In this document: positions 1,894 through 8,748 of the stretch, one piece after another
Numbering within the stretch: the first letter of the stretch is position 1
How the letters are laid out: every line of letters starts with the position of its first letter
DNA from: Solirubrobacterales bacterium
GTDB taxonomy: Bacteria > Actinomycetota > Thermoleophilia > Solirubrobacterales > JBBDJG01
Reading direction: 5' to 3'
Assembly (NCBI GenBank): GCA_035650255.1
Contig: DASRIA010000045.1
Span: forward strand, 42,461-106,460
Length of the DNA stretch: 64,000 nt
Made by a program: the position numbers and the translations under genes
The notes under the pieces: model-generated
Database searches by the model: none
Told to the model about the DNA's origin: nothing
Seen by the model: the letters and a program-made list of their open reading frames with translations, nothing else

Positions 1894-2357
1894 CGCTGCG
1901 CGCGTGCGTCCCGCAGCGCGTCCTGCGGGTCCGAGTACACCTGCATCGCGACGGCCTTGTTGTCGACGACCGTCCACAGGTGCGCGATCTCCTCCTCGAC
2001 CGGCACACCACTCCCCCGACCCCGGCCCGACATCCGCAGAACCACGACGACGTGGCTGCTGCCGACGCCGATCATGTCGACGGGGTCGAGCGTGAACTCG
2101 TCGAAGCTGTCGTCGCTGGACGCCAGCGCCTCGCGGACGCCCTCGCGGCCGTGATACGTCTGCGGGTCGGGCGCCTCGGGGCGGTCGCGGATCACGACCT
2201 CGTCCGAGATCAGGTCCCAGGCCTCGGCGCTCTCCAAGCCCTCGCGGCCGATCCCCTCGTACGCGGCGCGCAGCATCGCGACGTTGCGCTCGGTGAGGAA
2301 CTCCTCCTGCTCGAGCCGCTCGGTCAGCGCAACCCTCCGTGCACGCGCACGCGCCAT
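1890..2357 (-). CDS. SnoaL-like / NTF2-fold protein
   Basis: C-terminal 155 codons of the 552-aa track ORF. ERNVAMLRAAYEGIGREG...IAHLWTVVDNKAVAMQVYSDP is typical of SnoaL-like polyketide-cyclase-fold proteins. The upstream part of the track ORF is the alternate frame of neighbouring genes. Start uncertain. Confidence 0.55.
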   Translation of the reverse strand: MARARARRVALTERLEQEEFLTERNVAMLRAAYEGIGREGLESAEAWDLISDEVVIRDRPEAPDPQTYHGREGVREALASSDDSFDEFTLDPVDMIGVGSSHVVVVLRMSGRGRGSGVPVEEEIAHLWTVVDNKAVAMQVYSDPQDALRDARAQR

Positions 2358-2899
2358 GCCGATCCCGGCGCCGCCAGCGCTGCGACGTGGCCCGCGGGTG
2401 CCGGCACCGCGGCGACGTCCCAGCCGCCGACGGTGCACCGCGCGCGGCCTTCCGCGAGGCCGGCCACGGAGAACGACCCGAGCCCCAGCGAAAGGCCGGT
2501 GCCGAGTCCCTTCGCATATGCCTCCTTGCCCGTCCAGCAGCGATGGAACGCCGTGGTGCGCCCGGGCTCGGCCAGCCGCGCAAGGGCGGCGGCCTCGTCG
2601 CCGGCGAATCGGCGCCGCGCGAACCGTTCCACCGCCCGTCGCGGTTTGACCCGCTCGAGGTCGATGCCCACGGGCCGCTCGCGCGACACCGCGACGAGCG
2701 CCCGGCTGCCTGAGCGCGAGAAGCTGAAGTGCAGTGCGTGCCCCGCCAGCGCGGGCTTGCCGTGCGGGCCCGCCTGGAACAGCAGCGTCGCAGGGTCGGC
2801 GGCGAGGTAGGAGCCCAGCACCGCGCGCATCGCCGCCTCGCCCCGGCTGCGGTCGCCGGCGCTCACCTGCCAGACGTCGATCACGTCCCGTGCGGGCAT
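2324..2899 (-). CDS. 4'-phosphopantetheinyl transferase (Sfp-type)
   Basis: Motifs GPHGKPAL, FSFSRSG, PVGIDLERV, FHRCWTGKEAYAKGLG. Start set at the internal ATG (MPARDVIDVWQV) at 2899. Confidence 0.8.
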   Translation of the reverse strand: MPARDVIDVWQVSAGDRSRGEAAMRAVLGSYLAADPATLLFQAGPHGKPALAGHALHFSFSRSGSRALVAVSRERPVGIDLERVKPRRAVERFARRRFAGDEAAALARLAEPGRTTAFHRCWTGKEAYAKGLGTGLSLGLGSFSVAGLAEGRARCTVGGWDVAAVPAPAGHVAALAAPGSAWRVRVHGGLR

Positions 2900-2921
2900 G
2901 TCCTGAAGGTAACAGCCGGGT

Positions 2922-3404
2922 GTGCCGCTCCCGGGGTGCGGCGCGCTTAGACTCCGCGCCGTGCCGGAGTCCGAGGAGAAGCTCGACGTCGAGGCCGCCA
3001 TCGAGCGCCTCAACCAGGCGCTCGCCTTGCAGTACCGCTCGACGCTCCAGTACATGGTGCTGGCGGGCGGCATGACGGGATTCGCTCATCTCGCGCTGCG
3101 GGCTCCGCTCGCGGAGGCGGCCCAGGCGGAGCTCGAAGACGTGCGGCTGCTGGTCGAGAAGGTGACGGCACTTGGCGGCGAGCCCACCGTGGAGATCGCG
3201 CCGCTGCGCTGGGATCCCGACCCCGAGCAGCAGATCGACCGCCTGCTCGAGGACGAGGGCGCTGCGATCGAGGCACTGCAGGCGGCCATCGAGCCCACCG
3301 GCCGGGAAGGCGCCTCCGAGGCGCTGGAACACCTGCTCGAGCACCTCATCCTGCGCAAGCAGCGGCAGGTGGACCTGCTGCTCCGCGCCCGCCGCACCCC
3401 CTGA
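2922..3404 (+). CDS. Ferritin-like (bacterioferritin/Dps-fold) domain protein
   Basis: Four-helix-bundle-like sequence LNQALALQYRSTLQYMVLAG...EDEGAAIEALQAAI...LEHLLEHLILRKQRQVDLL. Alternative GTG start at 2961. Confidence 0.5.
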   Translation: MPLPGCGALRLRAVPESEEKLDVEAAIERLNQALALQYRSTLQYMVLAGGMTGFAHLALRAPLAEAAQAELEDVRLLVEKVTALGGEPTVEIAPLRWDPDPEQQIDRLLEDEGAAIEALQAAIEPTGREGASEALEHLLEHLILRKQRQVDLLLRARRTP

Positions 3405-3768
3405 CCCCGACCGTCGCGCCGGCGCGGACGCCCAGCGCAAGGAACGCCCCGGCGGGAGCTTCGAGCACCGCCGTGTCCCGCGTCCGCCGGCCGGCCAGGC
3501 GTAGCGCGCGGCGCGGCCCCACCCCCTCGTGGAGCCGCAGCACCGCACATCCGGCGGCCGGGGGCCACTCCAGGAAGGCCACGTCCAGGCCGAAGCGCAT
3601 GCCGTAGGTGTGGACCGCCCGGCACCGTGGGATCAGCAGGCCCCGCGCGGCCGCGTCCACCCCCGCCAGGCCGAGCAGCCGCGCGCCGAAGGACTGGGCC
3701 AGCCAGACCTCGAGGGACCCACCCGCTGCCTGGACGTCCAGCGTTCGTGCGAACCGAAACCGCCGCAT
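3346..3768 (-). CDS. DUF192-family protein
   Basis: LAQSFGARLLGLAGV...RGLLIPRCRAVHTYGMRFGLDVAFLEW matches the DUF192 pattern (A..R..GL...VHT.GMRF.LDV.FL). The 3' end overlaps the convergent ferritin-like gene by 59 nt. Confidence 0.5.
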   Translation of the reverse strand: MRRFRFARTLDVQAAGGSLEVWLAQSFGARLLGLAGVDAAARGLLIPRCRAVHTYGMRFGLDVAFLEWPPAAGCAVLRLHEGVGPRRALRLAGRRTRDTAVLEAPAGAFLALGVRAGATVGVRGCGGRGAAGPPAAACAG

Positions 3769-3900
3769 TTCAAGCTAAGGGCCGGGCCGCCCGAAAATGA
3801 CCGTGGACGTGCAAAGCACCTCCCAGGGCCTCGCGCGAGGGCAGGAGTCGCCCGTAAGATTCAGACGCGGGCCCGGGGTGCCGGGGCGAGAGCCAGGGAC

Positions 3901-4371
3901 ATGTCAAGGGACAACACCAAAAAACGCGGCAACTACAACTCCGGCGAGGACTACGTCCTCGAGTACGGAGAGCTGCGCTTCACCTTCAACGAGGAGGACT
4001 TCCGCCAGCGGGTGGAGCAGGCCGCCGTGAAGCTGAGCTTCGTCAAGCCGGGGCTGGCCACCGAGGAGCTGGACGACCTCGTGAACCTGGCCGTGAACGG
4101 TGAGATCCGCGAGGCGTCCTCCCCGCTCGGCGAGCACGTGAACGAACGCTGGTACGAGCTCGTCGGCCCCGCCGACCGCTCGCTCGTCCACTGGCTGCGC
4201 CGGCTGGTGTTCCGCGGCGCCTGGCTGGACCAGCGCGTCAAGGAGGGCGAGCTCGACATCCACTTCCATGAGGAGACGCACAGCTTCGGCTACGTGCAGC
4301 CGGACCGGGACTCGGAGCTGATCGAGCTGTCACCGGAACCCTCGTGGAAACCAGTGGCTTATCCCGGCTAG
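3901..4371 (+). CDS. Hypothetical protein
   Basis: Start placed at an ATG internal to the 280-aa track ORF (MSRDNTKKRGNYNSGEDYVLEYGELRFTF...). Normal amino-acid composition and coding-like GC3. No family recognised. Confidence 0.45.
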   Translation: MSRDNTKKRGNYNSGEDYVLEYGELRFTFNEEDFRQRVEQAAVKLSFVKPGLATEELDDLVNLAVNGEIREASSPLGEHVNERWYELVGPADRSLVHWLRRLVFRGAWLDQRVKEGELDIHFHEETHSFGYVQPDRDSELIELSPEPSWKPVAYPG

Positions 4372-4395
4372 GTAACTCCGCGTCCCACGGGCCGC

Positions 4396-4459
4396 CGGCC
4401 GGCATGCCCGCTCGGAGACGGAAAACCGTTCGGGAGTCTCCGATCGGGCATACCGGCCG
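4396..4459. repeat. Long imperfect palindrome (copy 1 of a conserved hairpin element)
   Basis: 24 paired positions with 2 mismatches. Inner stem TCGGAGAC/GTCTCCGA around the loop GGAAAACCGTTCGGGA. Same core as 15190-15248. Lies between convergent genes. Confidence 0.6.
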
Positions 4460-4468
4460 TCGGCCCGG

Positions 4469-5737
4469 CTAGCTCTGCTCCCTAGCCCGTTCCGCGAGGA
4501 ATTCCCACGCCTCTTCCGGATTGAGTGAGCGGGCCACGCCGCGCATGTTCTCGAGTTCGCGGCGGCGCTCGGGGTCGAGCAGCGCGTCCTCGCCCAGGGT
4601 GCGGGAGCGCTCCGCGTCGATAGCGGGGTGCTTGCCGCGGGCCGCCAGGCCCGCGTGCAGCCGCAGCACCATGTTCGCGCTGTCCTCGAGGGCGTCGTGG
4701 ACGAGCCCGTCCAGCGGGGAGCCGGTTTCCACCCGCGCGGTGGCGATCAAGGTCAGCGAGCCCTGCCCGGGGCCTGCGTCCCGCGCCGCGGAGAACCAGC
4801 GCTTGGTGGCTTCGACCGCCTGCGCGGGAGTGCCGAGGGCGAGGCCGTAGGCGCGCGCCAGCCGGCTCAGCGAGTCGAGCAGCAGCACCGCGTCCTCCCC
4901 GCGCGCCGCAGCCTGCTTGGAGTCATCGAGTGCGCGCTCCGCGAGCGCAACCTGATCGCGCGGAGAGCTGCTCGCGTCGGCGGCGGCCACGTCCACGTGC
5001 TCGTCCCACTCCGGCACCTCTTCGGGCCGCACGTCGACGAGCACCGCCCGCACACGCGCGCCCTCACGCGCCAGGCCGCGGCCGAACTCCTGCAGGAGCG
5101 CGGTCGCACCGGCGCCGGCCGGGCCCGCGATCATCGCGCGCTGGCCGCGCCCCACGGGCGCAACGATCTGCACCATGCGCGTGGCGAGCGCATCGCCCAG
5201 CTCGAGCTCCCGGCTGGGGCGCAGCACCGGCAGGTCGTCGAACGACGACCGCGACACGGGAGCGGGCCGCTCGGCGGGACGCTGGGTGGGGCGCTCGACT
5301 GAACGTTCGACGGGACGCTCGACCGGGCGTTCGAGGTCTTCGAGGGTGACGTCGTCCTCCTCGGGCCGCTCGCGCCGGCGGGGCCGCCGCTCCGCCGGGC
5401 GGGCCCGCTGCGGGCGGGAGGGTCGTGCCGGAGGCGGCGCGGGCGTCGGAACCGGCGTGGGCACGGCCACCTCTCCCCCGCTCAGCGCGGCCACCAGCTG
5501 CTCGCGTCTCAGCAGGCGATAGCGCGGGAGCCGGGCCTCGGCGGCGAACCGGTGCAGGTCCGCGAGCGGCCTGCCCTCCAGCTCCTCCGGCGCATGTGCG
5601 GGCGCGGGCGGAGCGCCCACCGCCTCCCGGGCGGCTACGTCCTCGCCGGCGGCCTGCGCCTCGCTGCCCGACGGACCCTCCGGAGCAGCCGGAGGACCCT
5701 CGCTATGCCGACGTCGGCTGCTTCGAAACCAGCTCAC
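4469..5737 (-). CDS. Rho-like protein: Rho N-terminal helix domain plus RecA-type C-terminal domain with degenerate ATPase motifs and no OB-fold RNA-binding domain
   Basis: LADLHRFAAEARLPRYRLLRREQLVAAL (Rho_N-like). IVAPVGRGQRAMIAGPAGAGATALL aligns to Rho IGRGQRGLIVAPPKAGKT. VLVDVRPEEVPEW aligns to LIDERPEEVTEM. AVLLLDSLSRLARAYG aligns to VIILLDSITRLARAYN. GSLTLIATARVETGS and HPAIDAERSRT are also Rho-like. Confidence 0.7.
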   Translation of the reverse strand: MSWFRSSRRRHSEGPPAAPEGPSGSEAQAAGEDVAAREAVGAPPAPAHAPEELEGRPLADLHRFAAEARLPRYRLLRREQLVAALSGGEVAVPTPVPTPAPPPARPSRPQRARPAERRPRRRERPEEDDVTLEDLERPVERPVERSVERPTQRPAERPAPVSRSSFDDLPVLRPSRELELGDALATRMVQIVAPVGRGQRAMIAGPAGAGATALLQEFGRGLAREGARVRAVLVDVRPEEVPEWDEHVDVAAADASSSPRDQVALAERALDDSKQAAARGEDAVLLLDSLSRLARAYGLALGTPAQAVEATKRWFSAARDAGPGQGSLTLIATARVETGSPLDGLVHDALEDSANMVLRLHAGLAARGKHPAIDAERSRTLGEDALLDPERRRELENMRGVARSLNPEEAWEFLAERAREQS

Positions 5738-6395
5738 GTAGCCACTCGACGAACTCCGGCCGGGTTTCCCAGTCCGCCTTGAAACGCGTCCGCCCCTGCT
5801 CGGTCAGCGGGTGATCGAGCATCTGCCGGAACACCTTTGCCGGGACGGTGGCGACCTCGCACCCCAGCCTGGCCGCTGTGACGACGTGCTCGGGGTGGCG
5901 GATCGACGCGGCCAGAACCTCGGTGGTCGTCCCGCCCGGACGCAGCGCAGACACGATCTCCTGCACCACAGAGGTGGAATCGATGGAGATGTCGTCCAGC
6001 CGGCCCATGAAGCAGGACGCGTACAGCGCTCCCGCCTGTGCGGTCAGGAGCGCCTGGTTGGACGAGAAGACCAGCGTCATGTTCACGCGGATGCCCTCAT
6101 CGGTCAGCGCGCGCGTGGCAGCCAGGCCCTCGCTCCCGAAGGGGACCTTCACCACGACGTGCTCGTGCAATGTGGCGAGGGCGCGGCCTTCCTCGATCAT
6201 GCTCGCGGCGTCGTCGGAGACGACCTCGGCGCTCACTGGGCCGCCCACGAGGTCGCAGATCCGGCGCACGATGTCGCCCGGCTCCCCCTTCTCCTTTGCG
6301 AGCAGGGAGGGATTGGTCGTCGCGCCGGAGAGGATGCCCCAGCCGGCGATCTCCTCCACCTCTGCAACGGACCCTGTGTCTATGAAGAACCTCAT
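5703..6395 (-). CDS. tal: Transaldolase / fructose-6-phosphate aldolase (short TalC/Fsa type)
   Basis: MRFFIDTGSVAEVEE, SGATTNPSL, VVVKVPFGSEGL, IRVNMTLVFS, FMGRLDDI. ATGA overlap with the upstream gene at 6392-6395. Confidence 0.9.
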   Translation of the reverse strand: MRFFIDTGSVAEVEEIAGWGILSGATTNPSLLAKEKGEPGDIVRRICDLVGGPVSAEVVSDDAASMIEEGRALATLHEHVVVKVPFGSEGLAATRALTDEGIRVNMTLVFSSNQALLTAQAGALYASCFMGRLDDISIDSTSVVQEIVSALRPGGTTTEVLAASIRHPEHVVTAARLGCEVATVPAKVFRQMLDHPLTEQGRTRFKADWETRPEFVEWLRELVSKQPTSA

Positions 6396-7384
6396 CGCGC
6401 CATTCCCTTCTCCGAGCCATCACCCGAGGCACCACCGCCCCGTTCGGGCACTCCTGAGAGATTAGCGCCGGAGGCGGCACCCACCGCGTCGAGCACGACC
6501 TCGAGGACCCGGCGCCACACGTTCTCGAGGCCCGATCCGGAGGCGTCGATCACCGGCACGCCGGCGGCCTCGGCGCGCCCGATCAGGTAGTCCTGCACTG
6601 CCCGGATGCGCTCGAGCGCCTCCAGGTAGCGCTGGGGCTCGCGCAGCGTCTGCACGCCGCGCGTGTGGAAGTGCTCCCGGTGCTCGTCCTCGTCGCGCAC
6701 CGCGAGCATCACCCGCACGGTGGTCGCACGCGCGCACAGGCCGGCGTCCGGGACGTCGGGCAGCAGGTGCACGCCCTCGACGACCATCGGCGTGCGGTCC
6801 GAGATCGCCCGCTCGACCACCGCGTCGAGCCCGGGAGCGATGTCGTGCGCCTGGTGCACGTAGCCGGCGACGGTGCCCGACGGATCGCCCGCCGGCCCGG
6901 CGAGAGCCCGCGAGACGTCGAAGGACGAGTGGTGCACGGACGGCAGGAACTCGCGGGAGAAGAAAGCCCGCACGACCTGCCGCACCTGGTCGGTGGCGAT
7001 CACGTGCGGGATCCCGAGCCGCCCCGCCAGCTGGGTCGCGACGGTCGACTTCCCGACGCCCGTCACGCCGCCGATCAGGACGAGCAGCGGCCGCTCCAGG
7101 TTGCGCACGTTCCACCACTGGCGGAACCGGGTCAGCACCGGCTCTCCCTCGCCCGCGGCAAGCACGTCCTCCGCCACCGCGCGCAGCTCGTCCACGCTGA
7201 TCTCCCCGGACCGGTGGGTCAGGAGGTGCTCCTCGATCTGCTGGGCGAGCGCGAACGAGCGCTCGGAAGGCAGGCCGGTCGCCATCAGGGACTGAGCCAT
7301 CAGGCCCTTCGAGTACGGCAGTCCGTAGTCGCTGCGCACGACCACGGTCGGCGGCGCACCGCCCCGGCGCTGCGCCGGGCTCAC
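6392..7384 (-). CDS. 2-phosphoglycerate kinase-like (COG2074 family)
   Basis: LPYSKGLMAQSLMATGL..., P-loop LIGGVTGVGKSTVATQLAGRLGI, HVIATDQVRQVVR. Start set at GTG 7384, which forms a GTGA overlap with the upstream stop. The rest of the 521-aa track ORF is the alternate frame of the upstream gene. Confidence 0.75.
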   Translation of the reverse strand: MSPAQRRGGAPPTVVVRSDYGLPYSKGLMAQSLMATGLPSERSFALAQQIEEHLLTHRSGEISVDELRAVAEDVLAAGEGEPVLTRFRQWWNVRNLERPLLVLIGGVTGVGKSTVATQLAGRLGIPHVIATDQVRQVVRAFFSREFLPSVHHSSFDVSRALAGPAGDPSGTVAGYVHQAHDIAPGLDAVVERAISDRTPMVVEGVHLLPDVPDAGLCARATTVRVMLAVRDEDEHREHFHTRGVQTLREPQRYLEALERIRAVQDYLIGRAEAAGVPVIDASGSGLENVWRRVLEVVLDAVGAASGANLSGVPERGGGASGDGSEKGMAR

Positions 7385-8748
7385 GAGCCCGCCCTCGTGA
7401 CACGGCCACCGGCCTTCTGCCGCGCGGCCTCCACGAGCTGGAGCAGGGCGCCGTCGAGCGGCGGCCCGCTCGCCTCGGCGACCGGGCGGTTGCGCAGGAA
7501 CACGACGCGCACTCCCGCGCCGGCGGCGGCTTCGGCGACGACGTCGACGGCGGCGGCTTTCAGCTCGGTCAGGAACACATCGCACCCATCGCGCAGCGCG
7601 GCCTCGACATCTCGCGCGAGCTCCTCGCGCCGCGCCAGGTTGGTCGAGAGGTGGCGCGGCTTCACGCCCTCCCGGGCCAATCCCTCGACCAGGCTCGTCT
7701 CCGTGCCTGGCCGTGCCGTCACGAAGCATGCCACGCGGGCGCCTTGCTCCAGCGGCTCCGCCGGGCGCGGCCGGAGGGCGCAGCTCACGATCCGCTCGCG
7801 GGGGATCCAGCGGTCGAGGCCACCGTCGAGCTGCCCGCGCAGGGACGGCGCGAGCTCGGCCGCTCCCAGCAGCACGAGCAGGTCGGCGCGCAGCAGCCGC
7901 AGGGGCCCGAGGTGGGAGAGCGCCTGCGCACCGGCGTCCGCGGCCGGCGTCACGCACACCGTCGCGTGCGCGGCCACCGGTGGCAGAGCGGCGCCGCTTC
8001 CCTCCAGCACGATCACGTCCGGTTCTTCCTCGAGCGCCGCGCGCAGCCCCGCGTGGACGTTGGACTCGAAGGTCTCACCCGCCGGGCCCTCCCCGCAGCG
8101 GCGGCAGCCGACGGTGGTCACGCCGGCGAGCACCGCGTCCTCCAGGTAGTCGGACGCGGCATGTCCGCCGGCGCGCGCGATCTCCAGCAGCTCGGCGAGG
8201 CCCGGGCGTGCGGCGGCCCGGATCACGACCGGCTCGGGCGGGCCGCCCCGCCCCATCGAGACCACCACGGTCTCCATGCCGGATTCGCGCAGCAGCGCAG
8301 CGAGGTGAGTGCCGAGCGCGGTCTTGCCGGTTCGCTTGCCGGTCCCGATCACCGCGACAACGGGAACGCCGTCCGTCTCCGGCGCAGGGGCGGCCGGCGG
8401 GGTCAGCAGCATGCCGGGCGCGCGGTACTCCAGCCCTTCGTGCAGTGCGACCGCCGCCAGCTCCATCCGGGCGGCTGGATCGACGACGGGCTCTCCCGAG
8501 AGGTCGACGACCGCCTCCGCTGCGCATGTTCGGGCAAGGGAGCCGAGCGCTGCGCGCACGTCCTCCCCCGGCATCGTCACGTCCCGCCCGTAGTGGGCGG
8601 CCGGATCCGCGAGCACCGCCGGGGGGACCTTCTCCTCGCCGCCGGCGAACAGCACGCCCGCGAGCTCGTGCTCCTCCTGCAGCTTGTCGAGCGCCGCGCG
8701 CGCGACGCCGGGATGGTGCTCGCCGTCTACGAGCGCGATGACCCGCAA
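7381..8748 (-). CDS. cpgS: Cyclic 2,3-diphosphoglycerate synthetase-like (COG2403 family)
   Basis: 455 aa. N-terminus MRVIALVDGEHHPGV. P-loop VVAVIGTGKRTGKTALGTHLAALL. The size and adjacency to a 2-phosphoglycerate kinase-like gene fit the cDPG pathway pair. Confidence 0.7.
   Translation of the reverse strand: MRVIALVDGEHHPGVARAALDKLQEEHELAGVLFAGGEEKVPPAVLADPAAHYGRDVTMPGEDVRAALGSLARTCAAEAVVDLSGEPVVDPAARMELAAVALHEGLEYRAPGMLLTPPAAPAPETDGVPVVAVIGTGKRTGKTALGTHLAALLRESGMETVVVSMGRGGPPEPVVIRAAARPGLAELLEIARAGGHAASDYLEDAVLAGVTTVGCRRCGEGPAGETFESNVHAGLRAALEEEPDVIVLEGSGAALPPVAAHATVCVTPAADAGAQALSHLGPLRLLRADLLVLLGAAELAPSLRGQLDGGLDRWIPRERIVSCALRPRPAEPLEQGARVACFVTARPGTETSLVEGLAREGVKPRHLSTNLARREELARDVEAALRDGCDVFLTELKAAAVDVVAEAAAGAGVRVVFLRNRPVAEASGPPLDGALLQLVEAARQKAGGRVTRAGS

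What the first reader, a model, noticed from the sequence alone, without database searches (positions are those of the whole stretch)
4469..5737. Rho paralog with substituted Walker A lysine and catalytic glutamate, and no OB-fold RNA-binding domain
Alignment by eye to E. coli Rho shows clear homology of the RecA-type domain, but with several changes:
- PPKAGKT becomes GPAGAGAT, so the P-loop Lys is Ala.
- LIDERPEEV becomes LVDVRPEEV, so the catalytic Glu211 equivalent is Val.
- The R-loop segment ([26 protein letters not shown]) is about 6 residues shorter (ALGTPAQAVEATKRWFSAAR).
- The Rho_N helix bundle is present (LPRYRLLRREQLVAAL), but the cold-shock-like primary RNA-binding domain is replaced by a ~100-aa Pro/Arg/Glu-rich low-complexity linker.

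This looks like a non-catalytic Rho-derived protein. It could be a regulator or a partner of the real Rho.
Basis: partly seen in the sequence, partly recalled or inferred. Interest (0 to 1): 0.6.

Follow-up and report, generated by a model that had tools for sequence, protein, structure and literature searches.

The report
Motor-dead Rho ortholog without RNA-binding domain
This soil actinobacterium's only copy of the transcription terminator Rho has lost its ATP-hydrolysis residues and its RNA-binding domain yet is still kept by selection, which suggests Rho was repurposed rather than discarded across a whole bacterial order.

Summary
It has also lost the Arg finger (R366→Leu), the R-loop Lys326 and Lys181.

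The word "paralog" and the idea of a partner of a real Rho do not hold. The genome (Solirubrobacterales, 93.6% complete) has no other Rho and no OB domain. No genome of the order among the 41 relatives searched plus a further class-level sample has a Rho above the curated cut-off, closed genomes included. The gene sits in the conserved slot downstream of tal, the same slot used by OB-containing orthologs in the same genus.

The protein is not simply decaying:
- The ATPase-derived domain has dN/dS of 0.2-0.34, against 0.02-0.06 for canonical Rho in a sister family.
- Eleven positions are fixed to new residues, including an invariant Asp at Gly337.
- The RecA fold is predicted with high confidence.

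OB loss is recent, seen in 3 species of one genus. An Arg/Pro-rich disordered linker takes its place.

Most likely reading: a non-motor protein derived from Rho. Published work lists two cultured members of the order only as "lacking functional Rho".

The parts
4469..5737 (-). Whole CDS of the Rho-derived protein (422 aa, GTG start, TAG stop). Its first 35 nt overlap the 3' end of the tal gene.
   Evidence: The start is supported by the conserved N-terminus MSWFRSSRRR in orthologs that begin with ATG.
5708..5737 (-). Conserved basic N-terminal motif (M/V)SWFRSSRRR, residues 1-10.
   Evidence: Alignment A1: identical in four of the five Solirubrobacterales orthologs aligned, both OB-less and OB-containing.
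5591..5707 (-). Disordered Ala/Pro/Glu-rich N-terminal extension, residues 11-49.
   Evidence: pLDDT 43-47. dN/dS 0.48-0.64 against the OB-less orthologs G004 and G005, and 0.18-0.26 against G001 and G002 over only 26-28 aligned residues.
5483..5590 (-). Rho_N-like helix bundle, residues 50-85 (ELEGRPLADLHRFAAEARLPRYRLLRREQLVAAL).
   Evidence: Pfam Rho_N E=0.012, below the cut-off. Aligns to T. thermophilus Rho residues 17-51. Helices 50-54, 58-67 and 78-85 have pLDDT above 90. dN/dS 0.20-0.27.
5243..5482 (-). Arg/Pro/Glu-rich disordered linker, residues 86-165, occupying the place of the acidic insertion plus OB fold of the orthologs. All primary RNA-binding-site residues are absent.
   Evidence: No PF07497 hit. 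pLDDT 48-67. 21% Arg, 22% Pro, net charge +3, against net -3 to -23 in OB-containing orthologs. Alignment to OB-containing orthologs.
5263..5334 (-). 12-nt tandem repeat, 6 copies, encoding the ERPV-type peptide repeats within the linker.
   Evidence: Tandem Repeats Finder.
4472..5242 (-). RecA-type domain derived from the Rho ATPase domain, residues 166-422. The fold is intact and the catalytic site is remodelled.
   Evidence: NCBIfam Rho 165.7 bits (cut-off 315), covering residues 161-420. PDB Rho E=6e-39. pLDDT above 90. Foldseek best match 3ice_A, E=5e-24, rmsd 1.9 A over 270 columns. dN/dS 0.20-0.34.
5102..5125 (-). Walker A remnant GPAGAGAT, residues 205-212. Ala211 (codon 5105-5107) replaces Lys184 and Gly208 replaces Lys181. 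The glycines and Thr212 are kept.
   Evidence: Family counts at Lys184: Ala 55 of 59, against Lys 37 of 37 in canonical Rho.
5030..5032 (-). Val236 codon (GTG) at the position of catalytic Glu211. The neighbouring Arg valve (R237) and Glu240 are kept.
   Evidence: Val in 58 of 59 family members, Glu in 37 of 37 canonical.
4874..4876 (-). Asp288, which is Walker B Asp265, retained within LLLDSLSRLAR.
   Evidence: 59 of 59.
4820..4843 (-). Site of the Q-loop deletion, residues 299-306 (LALGTPAQ). Nine residues are missing, including the K283 and T286 equivalents.
   Evidence: HMMER alignments.
4709..4723 (-). R-loop remnant GSPLD, residues 339-343. Pro341 replaces Lys326.
4682..4684 (-). Asp352, invariant in the family, at the position of Gly337 in the ATP/bicyclomycin pocket.
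   Evidence: Asp 59 of 59, against Gly 36 of 37.
4595..4597 (-). Leu381 at the position of the Arg finger R366. A new conserved Arg379 sits at the position of Gly364 (RSRTLGE against RSGTRKE).
   Evidence: Leu 51 of 59, against Arg 37 of 37.
4388..4467 (.). Long near-perfect hairpin in the 97-nt gap between the convergent Rho-like gene and the 155-aa ORF. Terminator-like, with no U tract.
   Evidence: Fold energy -67.2 kcal/mol, z=-5.6, 0 of 200 shuffles fold as well. The consensus terminator scan found nothing.

Best explanation
The gene is the organism's single, positionally orthologous rho, converted into a protein that cannot work as an ATP-driven RNA translocase.

Shown:
- An uncultured Solirubrobacterales lineage (Thermoleophilia, Actinomycetota) carries one Rho homolog per genome.
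- Across the order its motor residues have been lost in different combinations.
- In family f1 a new residue set is fixed: Ala184, Val211, Leu366, Gly353, Asp337 and Arg364 (E. coli numbering).
- The Mg2+-binding and scaffold half of the pocket is invariant: Gly183, Thr185, Arg212, Glu215, Asp265, Ser266 and Arg269.
- The Q-loop is deleted and the R-loop lysine is replaced.
- In a sub-clade of one genus (this genome plus two other species) the OB-fold primary RNA-binding site was also lost. An Arg/Pro-rich, net-basic disordered linker, partly built by 12-nt repeat expansion, takes its place.
- The Rho_N helices and the RecA-type domain remain under purifying selection.

Inferred: the protein is functional but not a motor. 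The RecA-type domain most likely still serves as an oligomerisation scaffold with a remodelled inter-subunit pocket that is either self-filled or binds a ligand. The Rho_N bundle, the basic N-terminal motif and the Arg-rich linker provide ATP-independent contacts with nucleic acid or with the transcription machinery. The lineage would then terminate transcription without Rho translocation.
For: Identity and catalytic losses.

Sole Rho homolog in the genome.

Order-wide pattern: 0 of 41 relatives and 0 of the order's genomes in the class sample score above the curated cut-off. Each has at most one copy, closed genomes included. Sister families of the class score above 600 bits.

Positional orthology: folP-MPE-cDPGS-2PGK-tal-RHO-155aa ORF-DUF192-PPTase is conserved, the OB-containing congeners use the same slot, and a canonical rho of family f10 lies next to MPE-cDPGS.

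Monophyly and the long stem branch: root-to-tip distance 2.0-2.8 against 0.6-0.7 for canonical Rho.

Selection:
- ATPase domain dN/dS 0.20-0.34 and Rho_N 0.20-0.27. The linker is 0.62-0.73 in three of four comparisons.
- These values resemble the neighbouring enzymes cDPGS (0.20-0.44) and PPTase (0.27-0.53).
- 36 invariant and 51 nearly invariant columns among 37 homologs.
- 11 columns are at least 90% conserved in both groups but with a different residue.

Fold: pLDDT above 90 for residues 170-422, Foldseek rmsd 1.9 A to E. coli Rho, and disorder at residues 1-45 and 96-165.

OB loss is recent and clade-limited: the congeneric ortholog P0028 scores 64 bits on PF07497, and G000, G004 and G005 form a clade sister to G001 and G002.

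Linker charge and repeat origin.
Against: - No expression, biochemical or genetic data.
- dN/dS is 5-10 times higher than for canonical Rho, so much of the constraint is gone.
- Some lineages of the order have no detectable copy (family f5, 0 of 6 genomes). Others keep similarity only to the N-terminal half of the Rho model (f2, f3). The protein is therefore dispensable in at least some backgrounds.
- dS is near saturation and distorted by the extreme G+C content, so the dN/dS values are approximate.
- Oligomerisation, ligand binding and RNA binding are all inferences. No multimer model could be made.
- The genome is a 93.6%-complete metagenome-assembled genome.
Confidence: 0.6

Rival explanations
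1. A slowly decaying relic. Rho-dependent termination became unnecessary in the ancestor of the order, and the gene is being lost piecemeal (first the catalytic residues, then the Q-loop, then the OB fold or the C-terminal half). It has no remaining function, and the apparent constraint only reflects selection against misfolding or polar effects in the tal operon.
For: - Different families lost different catalytic residues: f2 keeps GKT but lost Glu211, f4 has GRT with Glu211 kept, and f1 and f3 lost both.
- Family f5 has no copy. f2 and f3 keep only the N-terminal half of the Rho model.
- Several other families of the class have no Rho at all.
- The protein evolves 5-10 times faster than canonical Rho.
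- The start overlaps the tal gene.
- In 73% G+C DNA long open frames persist by chance.
Against: - dN/dS of 0.2-0.34 in the folded domains against 0.6-0.7 in the linker in three of four comparisons. This is the same range as neighbouring bona fide enzymes.
- 36 invariant columns across 37 homologs of about 41% mean column identity.
- 11 positions are fixed to new residues, including the 100% invariant Asp352 and Ala354. Drift does not produce that.
- The gene is retained in the same slot across at least four families of the order.
Confidence: 0.25
2. A still-active ATPase or translocase that uses non-canonical catalytic residues, for example the newly conserved Arg379 and Arg335 in place of Lys184 and Arg366.
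For: - The P-loop glycines, Thr185, Asp265, Arg212, Glu215 and Arg269 are invariant.
- New conserved arginines appear at the positions of Gly364 and Leu320.
- The position of adenine-stacking Phe355 stays aromatic or His (His 35, Tyr 21).
Against: - Lys184→Ala, Glu211→Val and Arg366→Leu are all non-polar replacements of the residues that bind the beta/gamma phosphates, activate water and sense the gamma phosphate.
- An invariant Asp is introduced at Gly337 inside the phosphate pocket.
- The Q-loop is deleted and the R-loop Lys is lost, so the RNA-coupling elements are absent.
- From established knowledge of P-loop NTPases, Lys→Ala in Walker A abolishes activity.
Confidence: 0.08
3. One reading: a non-catalytic paralog that regulates or co-assembles with a canonical Rho encoded elsewhere in the genome. 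This would resemble the non-catalytic B or alpha subunits of rotary ATPases.
For: The assembly is 93.6% complete, so a gene could be missing. Non-catalytic RecA-type subunits exist in other hexamers (general knowledge).
Against: - No second Rho and no OB domain in the assembly.
- No genome of the order has a canonical Rho, including single-contig genomes G011, G024, G032, G040, G100, G147 and G164.
- The gene is syntenic with the rho of relatives.
Confidence: 0.03

Closest known systems
Canonical transcription termination factor Rho (E. coli Rho; M. tuberculosis Rho as the actinobacterial type with an inserted disordered region)
   Same: The RecA-type C-terminal domain has the Rho fold (Foldseek rmsd 1.9 A, about 32% identity). 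It has a Rho_N-like helix bundle and shares the motifs GRGQR, RPEE, LLDSxxRLAR, KRxF and PAID. It sits at the chromosomal position of rho in relatives. Like actinobacterial Rho, it has a disordered insertion after Rho_N.
   Different: No OB-fold primary RNA-binding site. Walker A Lys, catalytic Glu, Arg finger, Lys181, Arg353 and Lys336 are replaced, the Q-loop is deleted and the R-loop Lys is lost. It scores 160-166 bits against curated cut-offs of 315-628. Protein evolution is 5-10 times faster.
'Rho-like sequences' of Conexibacter woesei and Baekduia soli, listed as the only 2 of 464 Actinomycetota 'lacking functional Rho' (Moreira et al. 2024, PMC11347177)
   Same: Same order (Solirubrobacterales) and the same phenomenon of a Rho remnant with no functional Rho in the genome. 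Families f2 and f3 in this analysis match the Rho model only over positions 3-267, which fits their 'N-terminal + RNA-binding domains only' class.
   Different: The published cases keep the OB fold and lose recognisable ATPase similarity. The window's protein is the opposite: the OB fold is lost and a well-folded, conserved but catalytically dead ATPase-derived domain is kept. The paper's main text does not analyse residues, selection or synteny of these remnants. Its supplement could not be read.
Short-form Rho paralogs: NCBIfam NF041509 'paralog_Rho2', also called 'group B' or Type 4 Rho, which lack the N-terminal domain
   Same: A Rho homolog with a reduced N-terminal architecture. The NF041509 model matches the ATPase part at 165 bits.
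   Different: According to Moreira et al. 2024, short-form Rho keeps the RNA-binding and ATPase domains and lacks Rho_N. Here Rho_N is kept, the OB fold is lost and the motor residues are gone. The score is far below the 628-bit cut-off. It is not a second copy.
Non-catalytic RecA-type ring subunits (F1 ATPase alpha; V/A-type ATPase B)
   Same: A RecA-type fold related to Rho, kept in a ring-forming family although the subunit does not hydrolyse ATP. The nucleotide pocket is retained in altered form (general knowledge).
   Different: Those subunits alternate with catalytic partners in a heterohexamer. Here no catalytic partner exists in the genome, so any ring would consist only of dead subunits.

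Membership tests
Transcription termination factor Rho (TIGR00767 / NF006886) | Score above the curated family cut-off | tested here: not met
   NF006886 165.7 bits against 315; TIGR00767 159.7 against 509.45. Genome-level search 158.2 bits.
Transcription termination factor Rho (TIGR00767 / NF006886) | Rho-type RecA ATPase domain fold | tested here: met
   AlphaFold2 pLDDT above 90 for residues 170-422. Best Foldseek matches are all Rho, rmsd 1.8-1.9 A over about 270 columns. phmmer to PDB Rho gives E=6e-39.
Transcription termination factor Rho (TIGR00767 / NF006886) | OB-fold (cold-shock-like) primary RNA-binding domain, PF07497 | tested here: not met
   No hit at E≤1 in the protein and none in the whole genome. 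No beta structure at residues 86-165. The ortholog P0028 scores 64 bits as a positive control.
Transcription termination factor Rho (TIGR00767 / NF006886) | Rho_N helix bundle, PF07498 | tested here: inconclusive
   16 bits, E=0.012, below the 24.9 cut-off. However, there are three confident helices at residues 50-85, the segment aligns to Rho_N of T. thermophilus Rho, and it is orthologous to proteins flagged PF07498.
Transcription termination factor Rho (TIGR00767 / NF006886) | Walker A GxxxxGK(T/S) with Lys184 | tested here: not met
   GPAGAGAT, with Ala211 at Lys184.
Transcription termination factor Rho (TIGR00767 / NF006886) | Catalytic Glu211 and Arg finger Arg366 | tested here: not met
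   Val236 and Leu381.
Transcription termination factor Rho (TIGR00767 / NF006886) | Secondary RNA-binding site: Q-loop and R-loop (Lys326) | tested here: not met
   9-residue Q-loop deletion and Lys326→Pro.
Transcription termination factor Rho (TIGR00767 / NF006886) | Walker B Asp265 and Arg valve Arg212 | tested here: met
   Asp288 and Arg237, invariant in 59 of 59 family members.
Transcription termination factor Rho (TIGR00767 / NF006886) | RNA-dependent ATPase / 5'→3' translocase activity and hexameric ring | not testable with these tools
   Needs purified protein. No multimer modelling was available.
Ortholog (by descent and position) of rho | Single copy, monophyletic with Rho, in the syntenic slot of rho in relatives | tested here: met
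Short-form Rho paralog (NF041509 paralog_Rho2) | Score above the 628-bit cut-off; a second copy beside full-length Rho; OB fold and active ATPase retained | tested here: not met
   165 bits. It is the sole copy, with no OB fold and the catalytic residues lost.

The most novel reading that the evidence does not exclude
An entire actinobacterial order (Solirubrobacterales) has turned its essential-type Rho motor into a conserved 'pseudo-helicase'. This would be a ring or scaffold protein with a remodelled, non-hydrolytic inter-subunit pocket: a fixed set of Ala184, Val211, Asp337, Gly353, Arg364 and Leu366 replaces the catalytic residues. It would carry out an ATP-independent role in transcription or RNA biology. 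In the window's clade the role no longer even needs the OB-fold RNA-binding site and uses an Arg-rich disordered region instead. That would be a natural separation of Rho's motor-independent functions from translocation.
Probability: 0.45. Interest if true: 0.75.

Novelty: new variant of a known kind. Interest (0 to 1): 0.6.

Why it matters
Rho is regarded as a near-universal, often essential, ATP-powered terminator. Published surveys treat lineages as either having it or lacking it. Here an order keeps the gene in place for a long evolutionary time after its motor chemistry was abolished, with new residues fixed in the former active site.

If the protein is functional, it is a natural motor-dead Rho. 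That bears on a long-running debate over whether Rho acts by translocation or by allosteric, stand-by contacts, because a selected function that needs no ATP hydrolysis could be studied directly. It would also add a clear bacterial example of a pseudo-enzyme derived from a hexameric helicase.

Two further questions follow. How do these high-G+C actinobacteria terminate transcription and suppress pervasive transcription? And what does the repeated pairing of Rho domains with disordered regions contribute?

If it is only a relic, it still documents, step by step, how Rho is lost: the catalytic residues go first, then whole domains, then the gene.

Tried and rejected

2. The very conserved convergent 155-aa ORF (3904-4371) as a dedicated partner of the degenerate Rho. 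It also occurs in families with canonical Rho (f10) and in families with no Rho (f7, f9), and is absent from f8 and f11. Its presence does not track the Rho state; only its adjacency is specific to the order.

3. The in-frame TAG reported for G007 and G012 as evidence of pseudogenes. It is the true stop codon near E. coli residue 406.

4. My first locus extraction picked a wrong strand for L019. This was corrected using the table strands.

5. G142 was mis-extracted in the tree input (all gaps, spurious long branch) and should be ignored.

6. The supplement of Moreira et al. 2024, which is said to describe the 'Rho-like' sequences, is not held.

7. The search for related loci with the single protein returned only one true ortholog (L025) and two distant Rho genes. 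It was useful only for naming the taxon.

8. The consensus promoter and terminator scan found nothing in 3800-6600.

9. The whole-gene dN/dS values used stop-to-stop frames with non-coding 5' extensions for some genes. The per-domain values are the ones to rely on. All dS values are near saturation in this 73% G+C DNA.

10. One search was an empty script.
Full report
**1. What is at the coordinates**

The minus strand carries an ORF at 4469-5737: GTG start, 422 aa, in DNA of about 73% G+C. Its first 35 nt overlap the end of a transaldolase gene (tal, 5703-6395, PF00923).

Pfam finds only the generic ATP-synt_ab domain (E=4e-11) and a sub-threshold Rho_N hit (16 bits, E=0.012). It finds no Rho_RNA_bind domain even at E≤1.

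NCBIfam places the protein nearest Rho (NF006886 165.7 bits, paralog_Rho2 165 bits, TIGR00767 159.7 bits). All are far below the curated cut-offs of 315, 628 and 509.

phmmer against PDB sequences gives Rho of Thermus, Mycobacterium, Thermotoga and E. coli at E=6e-39 to 4e-33. The next hits, FliI and type III secretion ATPases, are at 1e-5.

**2.

HMMER's own alignments show `agpagagat` against `vappkagkt` and `lvdVrpeev` against `lidErpeev`. They also show a 9-residue gap in the segment after Walker B. I fetched the real E. coli rho for numbering and aligned it with 59 close homologs and 37 canonical Rho proteins.

Positions replaced or lost in the window protein:

| E. coli position | Window protein |
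|---|---|
| Lys181 | Gly208 |
| Lys184 | Ala211 |
| Glu211 | Val236 |
| Lys326 (R-loop) | Pro341 |
| Lys336 | Glu351 |
| Gly337 | Asp352 |
| Arg353 | Gly368 |
| Arg366 (Arg finger) | Leu381 |
| Q-loop positions 283 and 286 | deleted |

Positions retained: Gly183, Thr185, Arg212, Glu215, Asp265, Ser266 and Arg269.

The shortened segment is the Q-loop, not the R-loop. The linker is about 80 aa, not about 100.

**3. Structure**

An AlphaFold2 model built on a 37-sequence alignment has mean pLDDT 83.
- Residues 1-45 and 96-165 are disordered.
- Three helices at 50-85, the Rho_N bundle, have pLDDT above 90.
- Residues 170-422 form a RecA-type domain with pLDDT above 90.
- There is no beta-barrel between Rho_N and the RecA domain.

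All top Foldseek matches are Rho. The best is 3ice_A (E=5e-24, rmsd 1.9 A over 270 columns), and the match covers only the ATPase domain.

**4. It is not a paralog**

The window's assembly is 3.33 Mb in 104 contigs and 93.6% complete. It has three matches to the Rho model: this gene, and two weak ones that are F1 ATP synthase beta and alpha. PF07497 is found nowhere in the genome.

Among 41 relatives, 31 have exactly one Rho-like match and none reaches the curated cut-off.

In a class-level sample of 151 genomes:
- 66 have canonical Rho at about 566-667 bits (families f8, f10, f11).
- Every genome of the window's order is below the cut-off (81-281 bits), including single-contig genomes.
- Families f7, f9, f12 and f13 have no Rho at all.

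The taxon is Solirubrobacterales, based on the title of locus L025 and a named hit.

**5. Positional orthology**

The gene order folP, metallophosphoesterase (MPE), cDPG synthetase, 2-phosphoglycerate kinase, tal, RHO, convergent 155-aa ORF, DUF192, PPTase and SnoaL is conserved in the genus and the family. The core tal-RHO-155aa unit persists in families f2 and f4.

The OB-containing proteins of congeners G001 and G002 sit in exactly this slot. In a canonical-Rho genome of family f10 (G134), rho lies about 2 kb downstream of the same MPE-cDPGS pair.

A maximum-likelihood tree of the ATPase domain puts all Rho-like proteins of the order in one clade on a long stem. Root-to-tip distance is 2.0-2.8, against 0.6-0.7 for canonical Thermoleophilia Rho.

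**6. An order-wide pattern of decay, followed by fixation**

Catalytic residues were lost in different combinations:
- f4 has GRT with Glu211 kept.
- f2 (G100) keeps GKT but has Val at position 211.
- f1 and f3 have GAT plus Val, Ala or Thr at position 211.
- The Q-loop is shortened everywhere.
- f2 and f3 match the Rho model only over positions 3-267.

This fits release from selection for ATPase activity in the ancestor of the order, followed by independent losses.

Within the window's family the new state is fixed. In 59 homologs, Ala184 is found in 55, Val211 in 58, Leu366 in 51, Gly353 in 55 and Asp337 in 59. Eleven alignment columns are at least 90% conserved in both the degenerate family and canonical Rho, but with different residues. 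Alignment A2 has 36 invariant and 51 nearly invariant columns.

In an exhaustive search of 1.84 billion cluster representatives, only about 25 of the best 150 are of the degenerate type, nearly all ranked in the top 33. The rest are canonical. It is a small, lineage-restricted family.

**7. Selection**

Nei-Gojobori estimates against four congeners:

| Region | dN/dS | Amino-acid identity |
|---|---|---|
| RecA-type domain | 0.20-0.34 | 64-76% |
| Rho_N | 0.20-0.27 | 70-79% |
| Linker | 0.62-0.73 (one comparison 0.17) | 39-65% |
| Canonical Rho, genus g55 of family f10, at similar or higher dS | 0.017-0.060 | 93-97% |

Neighbouring genes give 0.06-0.15 for tal, 0.20-0.44 for cDPGS and 0.27-0.53 for PPTase.

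So constraint on this protein is 5-10 times weaker than on a working Rho. It is comparable to ordinary enzymes next door and clearly below neutrality in the folded parts. Caveat: dS is close to saturation in this G+C-rich DNA.

**8. Loss of the OB fold**

The congeneric ortholog P0028 (from G001) has PF07497 at 64 bits. All family members outside the G000/G004/G005 clade keep the GFGF(L/V)R motif.

The OB-less proteins (G000, G004 = P0018, G005 = P0004 = L025, plus about 15-20 metagenomic sequences) are each other's closest relatives. They form a clade sister to G001 and G002, so this is one recent event.

Alignment shows that the first half of the OB fold (DGYGFVR ... YVSR ... RRGE) is missing. 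The second half corresponds to low-complexity sequence, part of which is a 12-nt tandem repeat with 6 copies (5263-5334).

The replacement is 19-26% Arg and about 20% Pro, with net charge +3 to +9. The same region in OB-containing orthologs is net -3 to -23.

The N-terminal motif MSWFRSSRRR is conserved in both forms, which supports the annotated start.

**9. Interpretation**

Shown: this is the sole, orthologous rho of the organism. It cannot be a canonical ATP-driven translocase. It retains a well-folded Rho_N and RecA-type domain under purifying selection, with a remodelled pocket.

Inferred: it has an ATP-hydrolysis-independent function. The most likely form is an oligomeric scaffold with a self-filled or ligand-binding former ATP site, and basic disordered segments for nucleic-acid contacts.

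The main rival is a slowly decaying relic. That reading is supported by complete loss in some lineages and by the relaxed rate. The fixed switch residues and the contrast between the folded domains and the linker argue against it.

NusG is present and canonical, as it is in other bacteria that lack Rho.

**10. Literature**

Moreira et al. 2024 (PMC11347177) list Conexibacter woesei and Baekduia soli, both Solirubrobacterales, as the only 2 of 464 Actinomycetota lacking functional Rho. [quoted passage not shown] They also state that the ATPase domain of functional Rho is highly conserved, without large deletions.

A 2025 review (PMC12360218) mentions absence of Rho only in Cyanobacteriota, Mycoplasmatota and Streptococcaceae. 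It contains no occurrence of 'Rho-like' or 'degenerate'. Two further searches found nothing on catalytically dead Rho orthologs.

So the order-level absence of functional Rho is known. The conserved motor-dead ortholog, its fixed residue set and the OB-less form are not described in the literature I could search.

Earlier notes from this scan report the GRT and GAT/AGVRPEE forms in other genomes. They agree with what I verified independently.

Noticed in passing
window 6392-8748 (-): A two-gene pair for the extremolyte cyclic 2,3-diphosphoglycerate. The first is a cDPG synthetase homolog (7381-8748; E=4e-63 to solved cDPG synthetase structures 8oru/8ork/9sxb; no curated family hit). The second is a 2-phosphoglycerate kinase homolog (about 6395-7300; NF003259 at 230 bits, below the cut-off). 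The pathway is known from hyperthermophilic methanogens. Here it is syntenic across a bacterial order and is also present in a sister family (G134).
   Followed up: partly
window 3904-4371 (+): A 155-aa ORF (MSRDNTKKRGNYNSGEDYVLEYGELRF...) with no Pfam or NCBIfam family. It is extremely conserved: 94-99% identity between this genome and its four congeners, 65-78% across the order, and dN/dS 0.02-0.06. It lies convergent to the Rho-like gene throughout the order. It is also present at 37-50% identity in families with canonical Rho or with no Rho, and absent in f8 and f11, so it is not tied to the Rho state.
   Followed up: partly
window 4388-4467: A near-perfect hairpin of about 30 bp between the two convergent genes (-67 kcal/mol, z=-5.6) without a U tract. 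It looks like a bidirectional terminator, in a lineage that lacks a working Rho.
   Followed up: partly
class-level genome sample, families f7, f9, f12, f13: Several whole families of Thermoleophilia have no Rho homolog at all; their only hits are 62-86-bit matches of the kind given by other RecA-type ATPases (not checked individually). The class therefore shows three states side by side: canonical, degenerate and absent. That is more Rho loss within Actinomycetota than the 2 of 464 species reported in the literature.
   Followed up: partly
L065 (G025), L007-L010 (family f4): Family f4 Rho-like proteins have Walker A GRT (Lys→Arg) with the catalytic Glu kept, but lack the Q-loop and the R-loop lysine. 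This may be an intermediate that binds nucleotide without hydrolysing it.
   Followed up: partly
window 2922-3404 (+) and 2324-3073 / 3346-3768 (-): A ferritin-like ORF on the plus strand overlaps the PPTase and DUF192 ORFs on the minus strand almost completely. In this G+C-rich DNA one of the overlapping frames may be spurious. I did not resolve which.
   Followed up: no
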